From NCBI GenBank assembly GCA_026770705.1, contig JANJGN010000017.1:103230001-103294000 (forward strand): a stretch of 64,000 nucleotides of DNA, read 5' to 3'. This document shows, piece after piece, positions 27,913-60,606 of the stretch; position 1 is the stretch's first letter; each line of letters starts with the position of its first letter. The DNA is from Isurus oxyrinchus (taxonomy: Eukaryota). Below the pieces are notes generated by a model that was not told where the DNA came from, searched no databases, and saw only the letters and a list, made by a program, of their open reading frames with translations. Made by a program: the position numbers and the translations under genes.

Positions 27913-28103
27913 ATGGCCTTGGTGCATCAGAAGAAGCGGCGGAAAGACCCTACTCCTTATTTGGATGGAGGCGGCCCAGTTGGTGTGGTAAAGTTCAGCC
28001 AAGTTGGCATATTTTTGGTGGAGAGGAGGATGGGGTCGAGCAGGCGGTGCTTCCTGACCGAGCTCGCTCGGAAAAAGGGGTTCAGAGTGGAAGAGCAGAT
28101 GAG
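27913..28103 (+). CDS. POLM: POLM coding exon 1 (NLS, start of BRCT)
   Basis: [11 protein letters not shown]...[30 protein letters not shown]; donor AG|gtgagt. Confidence 0.9.
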
Positions 28104-58100: not shown

Positions 58101-60606
58101 AGATATATCTGGGAGTGATTAATTTGGGGATTTGTTTAATAGTTTTTATGGTAGTAACTTGTAGGTGTGTATGTGTTTAATACCTTGTAAAATTAATAAA
58201 TATTTATTTAAAAAAAAACCTCCTGGAGGCTTAGTAGTTTCCTTGCTGAATTCAGAGTTGCATCTCAAACGTACCAATTGAAAAAACAGGTTATGACAGT
58301 TGTTTAAAGTTTCTGATCTGACAATGCAGTTGGTAAAGCTGAGTTATTTAAAAATCCCAGAGGGAAACTTGAAACAACTGTCATAATCTATATTTTCATT
58401 TGGTATGTTTGAGATGCAATCTGAATTCAGGCATAAAACCACCAGTTCTTGAGGGGTTTTATATCAAACTACATGAGACATTTATTAATTTACACAAACT
58501 AAGCATACACACATGACTACAAATTACTATCATAACTTTAAACAAATTCCCAAACTAATCTCCACTAAGGCAACAACAATCCATAGAGTTTAAGCAGACA
58601 CCAGGCAAAGCATTTTCACCTTACAAATTCAAAATGAGGTTCCTTTCACTGAGCAGACAGTTGTAAGCTTACAGCTGCTTTCATGTTACACGCCTCTGCT
58701 CTGCACACACAAAACTGCTATCTGTTATACCCAGCACATCTCTTTGAATGTAATTCTCATTGTATCACCAGCCCCTTTGAACTTCAACTCTTTTAACAAT
58801 AAAACCCCTTTCATAGTACCAATTTTATTAGTAATATAAACATTGCTTGGTCTCTGCTAGCTAGGTGCCAGATTTCACTCCCCTTCTTGAATGCTCTATT
58901 CAACAAAATGCAAATGCATTCTACCTCTCTTAGGTCTCAAAATTAGTACACATCAAAGCACCCAGACTAGCTGGCTTTAATACAGTTAAGACACACCCAC
59001 AGACTAAACCTGTATTTAAAAAAAAAAAAAATTTCCAACAATATTATGTACATAATAGCTTCATGACATTTCCCTCTGGGATTTTAAATAACTACGCCTT
59101 TACCAACTGCTGTGTCACAACACCTGCTCTTGTAGCCACAGTATTTATATGGCTGATCCAGTTCAGTTTCTGGTCAATGGTAACCCCCAGGATGTTGTGA
59201 GTGGGAGATTCAGCGATGGTAATGCCATTGTATGTCAAGGGGAGATGGTTAGATTCTCTCTTGTTGAAGATGGTAATTGCCAGGCACTTGTGTGGCACAA
59301 ATGTTACTTGCTACTTATTAGCCCAGGTCTGAATGTTGTCCAGGTCTTGCTACACATGGGCATGGGCTGCTTCAGTATCTGAGGAGTAATGAATAGTGCT
59401 GAACATCATGCAATCATCAGCGAACATCCCCACATCTGACCTTATGATGGAAGGAAGGTCATTGATGAAGCAGCTGAAGATGGTTGGGCCTAGGACATGA
59501 TCCTGAGGAACTCCTGCAGTGATGTCATTGGACTGAGGTGATTGACCTCCAACAACCCCGCCATCGTCCTTTGTGCTAGGTATGACTTCAACCAGTGGAG
59601 AGTTTTCCCCCGATTCCCATTGACTCCAGTTTTACTCGGCCCCCATGCTGCCTTGATGTCAAGGGCACTCACTCTCACCTCACCTCAGCAGTTCAAGAAG
59701 TTGGCTCAAGGGAAATTTGGATGGGCAATAAATGCTGGCCTTGCCAGCGATCTTCACATTCCATGAACAAATATTTTAGAAAATCCACTGTATTTTGCAG
59801 TAATATGCCAAGACACTGCACTTCCAATGCAGTGGATTCCCCTTAATGAAATTCTGTTTAAAGAGTATAGCATCTTAAAACTGAAGTGACATTAGTTGAG
59901 CTAATTGTGATTGTTTAATACATTTATATATCAAAAAATATTCATCCTTATTATTTACCAGGCATGACAGCTGGTAGCTCCCTTGAACCCATAACCTTTT
60001 GACTAAGAGGCAAGTTCCATTCCAGAGACATAAGCACACAATCCAGGCTGACACTCCAGTGCAGTAGTGAAGGAGTGTTGCACTGTCAGAGGTGCCATCT
60101 ATCCTATAAGACATTAAACCAAGGAATAGTTTGCTCCCTTTGGTTAGCCTAAAAGATTTCTGGCATTATTTTGAAGAACAGCAGGAGAGTTATTCTTGGT
60201 GCACTGACCATATTTACTCCTCAACATCACTAAAATACTCTCAGACAAATTATTTCTCTTTATCATGTTACTGTTTGTGTGAGCTTGCTGCATGCAAATT
60301 GGCTCTGTATTTGCTACATTATAATTGTGACAACACTTCCAAAGTACTTCATTGGCTCTGAAGTGTTTTGGGATATTCTGAGGTTGTGAAGGGTCATGAG
60401 GACTCGAAACGTCAACTCTTTTCTTCTCCGCCGATGCTGCCAGACCTGCTGAGTTTTTCCAGGTAATTCTGTTTTTGTTTTGATATAAATGTGAGTCTTT
60501 GTTTTCTTCCTCATTTCAGAATAAATTTTTGCCAGCTGCTACAGAAGAAGAGATCTTTGCGCATCTAGGATTGGATTACATACCACCTCACGAAAGAAAT
60601 GCTTGA
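27913..60606 (+). CDS. POLM: DNA polymerase mu-like X-family polymerase (BRCT, 8-kDa, fingers, palm, thumb), 11 coding exons, 1575 nt / 524 aa
   Basis: Manual splicing join(27913..28103,36004..36184,39055..39153,39673..39843,39997..40068,40953..41073,43490..43622,45743..45845,53714..54046,56507..56590,60520..60606) gives one open frame with GT-AG introns and compatible phases. Motifs: KKRRK, MGSSRRx[21 protein letters not shown], [33 protein letters not shown] rather than DNTT rests on [22 protein letters not shown], xSH and PPxERNA. Confidence 0.85.
28435..28473 (-). ncRNA. Minimal type-I hammerhead ribozyme-like motif (variant core CUGUUGA)
   Basis: Reverse complement AGTT-CTGTTGA-AGGGTCATGAGGACTC-GAA-ACGT-C-AACT: stem I AGTT/AACT, palindromic stem III, GUC site. 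A second copy is at 23648-23686. Confidence 0.55.
28505..28887 (+). repeat. G-rich minisatellite (24-bp then 28-bp units)
   Basis: (GAGAGAGAAGTTGGGGGGTGGGAA)n followed by (GAGAGAGAGAAGTTGGGGGTGGGAGGGA)n. Confidence 0.95.
31067..32317 (+). mobile_element. Second Penelope-like family copy with inverted 5' pLTR piece
   Basis: GIY-YIG remnant [29 protein letters not shown]; 31067-31190 is the reverse complement of its own 3' end; 11-bp TSD AATACTGATTT at 31056-31066 and 32318-32328. Confidence 0.85.
33810..35590 (+). mobile_element. CR1 LINE, decayed
   Basis: [30 protein letters not shown] and CR1 3' UTR. Confidence 0.9.
36004..36184 (+). CDS. POLM: POLM exon 2 (BRCT)
   Basis: ttttcag|[12 protein letters not shown]...[26 protein letters not shown], |gtattt. 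Confidence 0.9.
36820..37500 (-). mobile_element. CR1 LINE 3' fragment
   Basis: KANGMLAFI in ORF 37246..37503; 3' UTR like that at window start. Confidence 0.8.
37532..38236 (+). mobile_element. Possible solo LTR
   Basis: TGTTAC...GTAACA termini, internal AATAAA; 3' end resembles 5400-5534. No TSD found. Confidence 0.45.
38390..38638. mobile_element. Penelope 3'-end foldback insertion (hairpin)
   Basis: Near-perfect ~97-bp inverted arms around a 4-nt loop (38487-38490); 12-bp TSD AGCAAGTAGACA at 38378-38389 and 38639-38650. Confidence 0.9.
39055..39153 (+). CDS. POLM: POLM exon 3
   Basis: ttttag|[33 protein letters not shown]|gtaata; YACQR motif. Not in the ORF track. Confidence 0.88.
39673..39843 (+). 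CDS. POLM: POLM exon 4 (8-kDa domain)
   Basis: [33 protein letters not shown]...[14 protein letters not shown]|gtaata. Confidence 0.9.
39997..40068 (+). CDS. POLM: POLM exon 5
   Basis: ctgcag|[24 protein letters not shown]|gtaaga. Confidence 0.9.
40953..41073 (+). CDS. POLM: POLM exon 6 (fingers, HhH)
   Basis: [41 protein letters not shown]|gtaata. Confidence 0.9.
42160..43270 (-). mobile_element. LINE 3' fragments (CR1/L2-group 42160-42490; L2 42900-43270)
   Basis: SKSWNSL motif; L2-type FKTLLKTHF antisense text. Confidence 0.65.
43490..43622 (+). CDS. POLM: POLM exon 7
   Basis: [19 protein letters not shown]...[10 protein letters not shown]|gttaga. Confidence 0.9.
44038..45520. mobile_element. 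Old Penelope-like element with inverted arrangement, interrupted at 44926-45201
   Basis: 44038-44620 is the minus-strand 3' end (LPVACHFN...EEQHLIFRL); 44621-45520 is the plus-strand GIY-YIG region of the same family. Confidence 0.75.
44926..46161. repeat. Long inverted repeat (arms 44926-45201 and 45913-46161) flanking POLM exon 8
   Basis: Arms are reverse complements with about 8 substitutions and two indels by manual count. Confidence 0.95.
45743..45845 (+). CDS. POLM: POLM exon 8 (catalytic GHDVDF)
   Basis: ttcttcag|[35 protein letters not shown], |gtatga. Not in the ORF track. Confidence 0.9.
47051..47084 (-). ncRNA. Minimal type-I hammerhead ribozyme with canonical core
   Basis: Reverse complement TGTC-CTGATGA-GTGCAAGAT-GAA-AAGCTT-A-GACA: stem I TGTC/GACA, core CUGAUGA...GAAA, palindromic stem III AAGCUU, UUA site. 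Confidence 0.7.
47619..52969 (+). mobile_element. Decayed Ty3/gypsy LTR retrotransposon, Gmr1-type order; 5' LTR missing, 3' LTR 52171-52969
   Basis: gag with zinc knuckle [14 protein letters not shown] (47762..48469); protease ILRDTGAS (~48685); integrase ([35 protein letters not shown], ~49380-50160); RT ([20 protein letters not shown], ~50880-51450); RNase H ([11 protein letters not shown], ~51620); polypurine tract then TGTCATGA...TCATTACA. Confidence 0.9.
50265..50405 (+). mobile_element. Short Penelope 3'-end insertion inside the gypsy element
   Basis: 14-bp TSD TCATTAAATACAAG (50251-50264 and 50406-50419); the first ~30 bp are inverted. Confidence 0.88.
53714..54046 (+). CDS. POLM: POLM exon 9 (loop 1, SD1, loop 2, third catalytic Asp, GWTGS)
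   Basis: tttttag|[12 protein letters not shown]...[12 protein letters not shown]...[27 protein letters not shown]|gtaagt. Confidence 0.9.
54700..55545 (+). mobile_element. Penelope-like ORF N-terminal fragment with (GT)n and poly-G
   Basis: [17 protein letters not shown] resembles the PLE N-terminal L.KGL.F.P motif; its 3' part matches the reverse complement of 30640-30800. Confidence 0.65.
56507..56590 (+). CDS. POLM: POLM exon 10 (thumb, SD2)
   Basis: ttctag|[28 protein letters not shown]|gtagga. Confidence 0.9.
57601..59122 (+). mobile_element. Solo LTR (same family as 52171-52969)
   Basis: TGTTATGA...TCACAACA; 5-bp TSD CCTGC at 57596-57600 and 59123-59127. Confidence 0.88.
58314..59068 (-). 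mobile_element. Second solo LTR nested in opposite orientation
   Basis: Reverse complement begins TGTCATGAAG and follows the LTR; TTTC duplicated at 58310-58313 and 59069-59072. Confidence 0.85.
60010..60510 (+). mobile_element. Deu-domain-type SINE with L2-like tail, interrupted by a Penelope 3' fragment (60388-60482)
   Basis: gctgacactccagtgcagt...cactgtcagaggtgcc...ttgaagaacagcagg...aagtacttcattggct; tail continues at atataaatgtgagtct. Confidence 0.7.
60520..60606 (+). CDS. POLM: POLM exon 11 (C-terminus, stop)
   Basis: tttcag|[28 protein letters not shown]; matches the recalled Pol mu/TdT C-terminus. Confidence 0.9.

What the first reader, a model, noticed from the sequence alone, without database searches (positions are those of the whole stretch)
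27913..60606. Pol mu / TdT mosaic polymerase with a TdT-type lysine at the terminal-transferase brake
Seen: Pol mu-type GRYLAFTRA and LGDHS (5'-phosphate/gap binding; recalled human GRLLTFCRA, FGEHS) and [14 protein letters not shown]. Also seen: TdT-type SD1 DHFAKCF (TdT DHFQKCF; Pol mu DAFERSF), loop 1 DILESS..KL, LYYEDL and FERDLRRYA. Established: human Pol mu Arg387 limits untemplated addition and the TdT-like R387K change increases it; this gene has K there and keeps the GH histidine. SD2 is TSH, neither DNH nor NSH. Inference: a gap-engaging enzyme with strong untemplated activity, perhaps close to the pre-duplication ancestor and relevant to shark antigen-receptor junctions.
Basis: partly seen in the sequence, partly recalled or inferred. 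Interest (0 to 1): 0.78.

Follow-up and report, generated by a model that had tools for sequence, protein, structure and literature searches.

The report
Shark polymerase mu with TdT-type lysine
This is the shark's ordinary DNA-repair polymerase mu gene, but like all sharks and rays examined it naturally carries a change that makes the human enzyme add far more untemplated DNA letters, an effect still to be tested in the shark protein.

Summary
All quoted motifs are real and lie in an intact, spliced 11-exon gene (524 aa). It is the POLM orthologue of a lamniform shark: 98.5% identical to Carcharodon Pol mu, outside the DNTT clade (AU p=2e-8 for grouping with shark DNTT), and next to a GNS-family sulfatase, as polm is in gar and bamboo shark (beta1 ohnologue; DNTT is alpha1). 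It is not a mosaic: loop 1 is 14% identical to shark TdT, 'DILESS' is lamniform-only, and most 'TdT-type' or 'Pol mu-type' motifs are not diagnostic. The real signal is K at human R387: 16 of 16 elasmobranch POLM, against R in chimaera and 116 of 121 ray-finned fish and tetrapod POLM; all 11 sharks also lost E386. Parsimony favours convergence (5 vs 6 steps), narrowly. The 5'-phosphate ligands R175/H208 are kept; TdT's SD2 aspartate is absent and loop 1 is two residues short. Best reading: a template-using end-joining Pol mu with its brake released, adding more untemplated bases than human Pol mu but not a second TdT. Activity and immune role are untested.

The parts
27913..28103 (+). POLM exon 1 (ATG, basic N-terminus, start of BRCT)
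   Evidence: BRCT PF00533 in the 98.5% identical P0001
36004..36184 (+). POLM exon 2 (BRCT)
39055..39153 (+). POLM exon 3 (linker, YACQR)
39673..39843 (+). POLM exon 4, 8-kDa domain with G174-R175 (39721-39726) and H208 (39823-39825), the 5'-phosphate ligands of human Pol mu
   Evidence: PMC7508851 passages
39997..40068 (+). POLM exon 5
40953..41073 (+). POLM exon 6 (fingers, K249; K at human R253)
43490..43622 (+). POLM exon 7 (to GGFRR)
45743..45845 (+). POLM exon 8 with H329 and catalytic D330/D332
53714..54046 (+). POLM exon 9: loop 1 (23 aa Y362-F384), SD1, long low-confidence loop 2, third catalytic Asp, GW steric gate
53798..53800 (+). K386 (AAA), equivalent to human Pol mu R387 / mouse TdT K403
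56507..56590 (+). POLM exon 10: arginine helix and SD2 T-S-H (56561-56569)
60520..60606 (+). POLM exon 11 with stop
6524..23053 (-). Neighbouring sulfatase gene, head to head (exons found: 23053-22940, 13004-12801, 8547-8449, 7370-7203, 6606-6524); GNS family by recalled motifs; synteny marker
   Evidence: gar gnsb-polm and bamboo shark pair

Best explanation
The gene is the shark's POLM, the beta1 ohnologue whose alpha1 sister is DNTT. The protein works like Pol mu: its BRCT domain docks on the end-joining machinery, R175/H208 hold the downstream 5'-phosphate, H329 and the arginine helix position the primer and broken template, and it fills short gaps (residues shown; activity inferred from human Pol mu). 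In the shark-ray ancestor the R387 brake became K, and in sharks E386 became A/T, so SD1 converged on the TdT form. The likely effect is easier primer back-translocation and more untemplated or slippage additions than human Pol mu (inferred). It stays template-capable because it lacks TdT's SD2 aspartate, keeps the phosphate pocket and has a short loop 1. Odds: orthology about 0.93; K by convergence about 0.7; tailing measurably above its own K-to-R mutant about 0.6.
For: Tree: DNTT 100/100 including five cartilaginous-fish DNTT and excluding the window; cartilaginous POLM 100/100; grouping with cartilaginous DNTT rejected, p-AU 2e-8. Synteny: gar polm LG1:8,647,786 and gnsb LG1:8,708,885; bamboo shark beta1 copy Chipu0001440 beside GNS-family Chipu0001441; the other shark copy is alpha1 with dntt. 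K in 16 of 16 elasmobranch POLM; R in chimaera, 4 of 4 amphioxus, 6 of 6 echinoderms, 2 of 2 basal rows; parsimony 5 steps with R ancestral, 6 with K. R175 in 13 of 14 elasmobranch POLM with a residue there, 0 of 9 cartilaginous DNTT; S458 16 of 16; D473-N474 31 of 31 DNTT. Mutant data: R387K up to 100-fold, brake model; TdT K403R shifts toward templated, Q402A is wild-type, Q402E much reduced, D473A templated, two-residue loop deletion less active.
Against: No activity was measured. The tree alone does not fix POLM monophyly (61/89) and does not reject cartilaginous POLM as sister of all DNTT (p-AU 0.527, lnL 0.38 higher). Parsimony margin is one step. 8 of 12 DNTT-versus-bony-POLM diagnostic columns are TdT-type in the window, three of them (148, 151, 386) apparently derived. 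The 100-fold effect was measured in the human background and is abolished by a neighbouring change (F389G/R387K). TdT DN-to-NS remains template-independent, so SD2 does not by itself enforce templating. The GNS identity of the neighbour rests on recalled motifs; Pfam says only Sulfatase.
Confidence: 0.6

Rival explanations
1. Ordinary Pol mu; the K is a tolerated conservative change with little effect in this background.
For: R-to-K needs one transition (codon AAA) and recurs sporadically in POLM: coelacanth, 1 of 10 mammals, 1 of 97 ray-finned fish; S in 2 salamanders. Loop 1 is 2 residues shorter than TdT's invariant 25, which lowers TdT activity. Bamboo shark TCR-alpha joints keep microhomology-directed assembly (PMC10322711 section 7).
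Against: K is fixed in 16 of 16 elasmobranchs while R is held in 116 of 121 ray-finned fish and tetrapod POLM; a second SD1 change (E386 to A/T) is in 11 of 11 sharks; the site has strong effects in both human Pol mu and mouse TdT.
Confidence: 0.25
2. One reading: a retained ancestral dual enzyme; K was present before the POLM/DNTT split and bony-vertebrate and chimaera POLM gained R.
For: Only one parsimony step worse; on the gene tree's own topology the count ties; T148 and N151 are shared with DNTT by all cartilaginous POLM bar one ray at 148; the window has the third-shortest path from the duplication node of 29 rows, 0.59; molluscs have K, 6 of 6.
Against: All deuterostome outgroups and chimaera have R; 0.59 changes per site is about the same as bowfin and chimaera POLM (0.60); D473-N474 and loss of R175 are DNTT-specific, so the ancestor looks Pol mu-like, not mixed.
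Confidence: 0.1
3. A true mosaic or third paralogue: gene conversion from DNTT, or a DNTT sister that is not the orthologue of bony-vertebrate POLM.
For: p-AU 0.527 for cartilaginous POLM plus DNTT; exon 9 alone scores better on mouse TdT (55 bits) than human Pol mu (34).
Against: gns-polm adjacency shared with gar and beta1 assignment in bamboo shark; loop 1 identity to shark TdT 14% versus 19% to bony POLM; shark DNTT is no closer than bony DNTT at SD1 (0.79, 0.79) and overall (0.51, 0.50), so no converted tract; the whole protein scores higher on human Pol mu.
Confidence: 0.05

Closest known systems
Vertebrate DNA polymerase mu (POLM); annotated Carcharodon carcharias Pol mu (P0001)
   Same: 515 of 523 aligned residues identical to P0001; BRCT plus PolX core; G174/R175/H208, H329, x-S-H SD2; gns-polm synteny; beta1 ohnologue
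   Different: K at 387, A at 386, H at 384, K at 253 against the human enzyme; loop 1 of 23 aa (human 24, most bony fish 26); T at N457; long loop 2
Terminal deoxynucleotidyl transferase (DNTT), including shark TdT (P0063, P0088)
   Same: SD1 identical to 10 teleost TdTs; K403, H342 equivalents; same fold; about 53% identity
   Different: Separate clade and chromosome segment; lacks D473-N474; keeps R175; loop 1 two residues shorter and 14% identical
Engineered human Pol mu R387K
   Same: Same substitution at the same site, with H329 and the phosphate pocket intact
   Different: Natural, fixed across sharks and rays, in a 50%-diverged background with further SD1 changes; never assayed as far as my searches show

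Membership tests
POLM | Orthology by phylogeny | tested here: inconclusive
   Outside DNTT, but POLM monophyly only 61/89 and the alternative root not rejected
POLM | Conserved synteny / beta1 ohnologue | tested here: met
   Sulfatase neighbour in window matches gar gnsb-polm and bamboo shark beta1 pair; GNS identity from recalled motifs
POLM | 5'-phosphate ligands R175 and H208 | tested here: met
   role from PMC7508851, PMC5622330
POLM | SD2 N-S-H | tested here: inconclusive
   T-S-H; S458 and H459 met, position 457 varies in non-mammalian POLM (S in 85 of 97 ray-finned fish)
POLM | SD1 E-R-S (mammalian definition), R387 | tested here: not met
   A-K-C; C388 is general outside mammals, K is elasmobranch-wide. 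A mammal-based motif, not an orthology criterion
POLM | Template-directed gap filling and end joining | not testable with these tools
   needs enzyme assay
DNTT | Membership of the DNTT clade | tested here: not met
DNTT | SD2 D-N-H | tested here: not met
   31 of 31 DNTT have D-N-H; window T-S-H
DNTT | SD1 with K403 | tested here: met
DNTT | 25-residue loop 1 | tested here: not met
   23 in window, 25 in 31 of 31 DNTT
DNTT | Lymphoid-restricted expression and processive untemplated synthesis | not testable with these tools
   runs carry no tissue labels and contigs give no level

The most novel reading that the evidence does not exclude
Sharks and rays re-evolved a brake-free Pol mu that both bridges broken ends and writes untemplated bases, and it supplies part of the N additions in shark immunoglobulin light-chain and IgNAR junctions that are now credited to TdT alone.
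Probability: 0.15. Interest if true: 0.7.

Novelty: new variant of a known kind. Interest (0 to 1): 0.38.

Why it matters
R387 is the residue thought to keep Pol mu from behaving like TdT. A whole vertebrate lineage fixed for the 'gain-of-function' lysine, with chimaera as an R-bearing sister, is a natural test of whether the brake is needed for genome stability and of how few steps separate Pol mu from TdT. Shark light-chain junctions carry N additions (PMC5192425), and mouse Pol mu acts at light-chain joints (recalled), so the enzyme is a testable extra source of junction diversity. Without an assay it remains an annotated gene with an interesting substitution.

Tried and rejected
No whole genome is held, so a DNTT locus in this very genome was not seen; separate DNTT proteins are known from other cartilaginous fishes, including a lamniform (9 species). 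AlphaFold models: loop 1 is low-confidence in both shark POLM (375-380) and the shark TdT control (382-388), so uninformative; Foldseek ranks full-length Pol mu then TdT cores, not diagnostic. Expression: no RNA holder on record was listed; tissue and level unknown. The two basal tree rows P0153 and P0155 could not be named; that they are cyclostome genes is a guess from their position and from the single lamprey and hagfish genes. Gene conversion: no exon-scale signal. The 5-change count was on a tree that included the trait column; one search repeats it on the accepted species tree. Supplements of PMC8302630 held no POLM/DNTT/GNS rows (one file not searched). The alignment figure in the PMC4081086 supplement is a picture and was not seen; it may already show non-mammalian Pol mu with K. 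Andrade 2009 and Loc'h 2019 are not held. No earlier scan findings. No complex prediction was run.
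Full report
Observation. Eleven exons from 27913 to 60606, all introns GT-AG, give an intact 524-aa ORF. Contigs from 4 of 4 runs laid on exons 9-10 join the two exons across a 2460-base GT-AG intron with no other letters, and loose ends match the end of exon 8 and the start of exon 11 in 3 of 4 runs each (at most 3 samples and 3 studies; RNA status is a guess). Alignment to human Pol mu (7co6, native numbering) places K386 on R387, with G174, R175, H208, H329, D330 and D332 kept.

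Identity. Exon 9 is 97% identical to the annotated Carcharodon Pol mu and the whole protein 515 of 523, so this is a lamniform shark gene already named POLM in close relatives. Cartilaginous fishes have separate DNTT proteins about 53% identical. In a 39-row mixture-model tree (chosen from 76 rows, rooted on amphioxus, echinoderms and molluscs) DNTT is a 100/100 clade containing five cartilaginous-fish DNTT, and the window sits in a 100/100 cartilaginous POLM clade. Forcing it with cartilaginous DNTT is rejected (p-AU 2e-8). Against my reading, POLM monophyly is weak (61/89) and a tree joining cartilaginous POLM to all DNTT is not rejected (p-AU 0.527, lnL 0.38 higher). Synteny settles it. A sulfatase gene lies head to head upstream (five exons found, ATG at 23053); Pfam and the Atlas say Sulfatase and the GNS-family call is from recalled motifs. 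Source data of PMC10972751 (rows seen; file cut when stored) list gar polm at LG1:8,647,786 with gnsb at 8,708,885, and in bamboo shark a beta1 member of the POLM/DNTT family next to a GNS-family gene on chr42, while the second shark copy is alpha1 like dntt; lamprey and hagfish have one gene each. POLM and DNTT are thus the beta and alpha copies of the jawed-vertebrate allotetraploidy (passages).

Which motifs are diagnostic. I aligned 189 rows grouped by their source names; isoform duplicates, unnamed Logan proteins and all but two unnamed representatives were left out; about a dozen fish rows labelled hypothetical were placed in POLM by me, and the lungfish fragment labelled DNTT-like was treated as POLM from its motifs. 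At human 387: K in 16 of 16 elasmobranch POLM (window plus 15 species) and 31 of 31 DNTT; R in chimaera, lungfish, 95 of 97 ray-finned fish, 10 of 10 reptiles, 9 of 10 mammals, 2 of 4 amphibians, 4 of 4 amphioxus, 6 of 6 echinoderms, 2 of 2 unnamed basal rows; K also in coelacanth, manatee, one pomfret and 6 of 6 molluscs; S in two salamanders. At 386 all 11 sharks have A or T and the 5 rays keep E. The window's SD1 heptapeptide recurs in two other shark POLM and 10 teleost TdTs. The rest is not diagnostic: C388 is general outside mammals; DILESS occurs in 2 of 189 rows; FERDLRR in 54, 13 of them bony-vertebrate POLM; KTADKW in 8 of 9 cartilaginous DNTT; H208 is in 11 of 22 bony DNTT. SD2 is not intermediate: S458 is POLM-type and T457 is the common amphioxus and echinoderm state, while all 31 DNTT have D-N-H. 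R175 is absent from 9 of 9 cartilaginous DNTT. Loop 1 is 23 residues against 25 in every DNTT.

Mosaic or ancestor? Of 12 columns separating DNTT from bony POLM, the window is TdT-type at 8, chimaera at 4 of 11 and coelacanth at 3 of 8. Most of the 8 match invertebrate or basal states; three (148, 151, 386) look derived and shared with DNTT. There is no converted tract: loop 1 is 14% identical to shark DNTT and 19% to bony POLM, and shark DNTT is no closer overall than bony DNTT (0.51, 0.50). Parsimony on the species tree needs 5 steps with R at the duplication and 6 with K, so convergence is favoured but not proven. The window's path from the duplication node (0.59) is third shortest of 29, equal to bowfin and chimaera POLM: slow, not ancestral.

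Mechanism. Shown: residues above. From papers (passages read unless stated): R175 and H208 bind the downstream 5'-phosphate and are needed for joining non-complementary ends (PMC7508851, PMC5622330); R387 brakes primer back-translocation against H329, and R387K permits expansions without distortion (PMC3592450) and raises terminal transferase up to 100-fold, though F389G cancels it (PMC4081086); N457 serves end synapsis and H459 tailing (same paper, section 12); in mouse TdT K403R shifts toward templated synthesis, Q402A is wild-type, Q402E much reduced, D473A templated, DN-to-NS still untemplated but weaker, and a two-residue loop 1 deletion less active (PMC2724280). Inferred: the shark enzyme fills gaps as Pol mu, with a released brake and an SD1 that TdT tolerates, so tailing should exceed human Pol mu; the missing D473, short loop 1 and intact phosphate pocket argue against a second TdT. 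AlphaFold did not discriminate.

Immune relevance is speculative. Shark light-chain joints carry N additions, credited to TdT (PMC5192425 passages), but bamboo shark TCR-alpha joints keep microhomology-directed assembly (PMC10322711 section 7), which does not suggest unrestrained tailing. No tissue data were available.

Novelty. The gene is known by annotation. Ten searches of the open-access library listed no paper on shark Pol mu or a natural R387K; subscription papers, the two primary papers not held, a recalled 2003 paper on elasmobranch TdT and an unseen alignment figure could mention it. PMC13433984, PMC12362244 and PMC3526283 were read as passages and added background only. Verdict: new variant of a known kind, real and testable, less exotic than first proposed. 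Interest 0.38.

Noticed in passing
window 6524-23053 (-): GNS-family sulfatase gene head to head with POLM, start codons 4.9 kb apart, each start CpG-rich; probably the gnsb paralogue; at least one exon between those found and the 3' exons were not located.
   Followed up: partly
P0341, P0029, P0319: Natural K at Pol mu 387 also in Amazonian manatee, coelacanth and a pomfret; S in two salamanders; T in an anglerfish. The manatee is a mammalian natural R387K.
   Followed up: no
window 47756-51744 (+), intron 8: Broken LTR-retrotransposon remains: SCAN domain, reverse transcriptase and RNase H pieces.
   Followed up: partly
window 11-1752 and 62515-64000: Two LINE reverse-transcriptase copies 92% alike, with older copies near 33830-35591.
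   Followed up: no
window 53830-53960 (exon 9, about aa 397-436): Long low-confidence loop 2, longer than in human Pol mu; annotated isoforms P0021 and P0027 of other sharks lack the loop 1/SD1 segment.
   Followed up: no
window 28507-28882: 14 copies of a 28-base purine-rich tandem repeat in intron 1.
   Followed up: no
P0030: Lungfish fragment named DNTT-like has POLM-type SD1 and SD2; probably misnamed.
   Followed up: no
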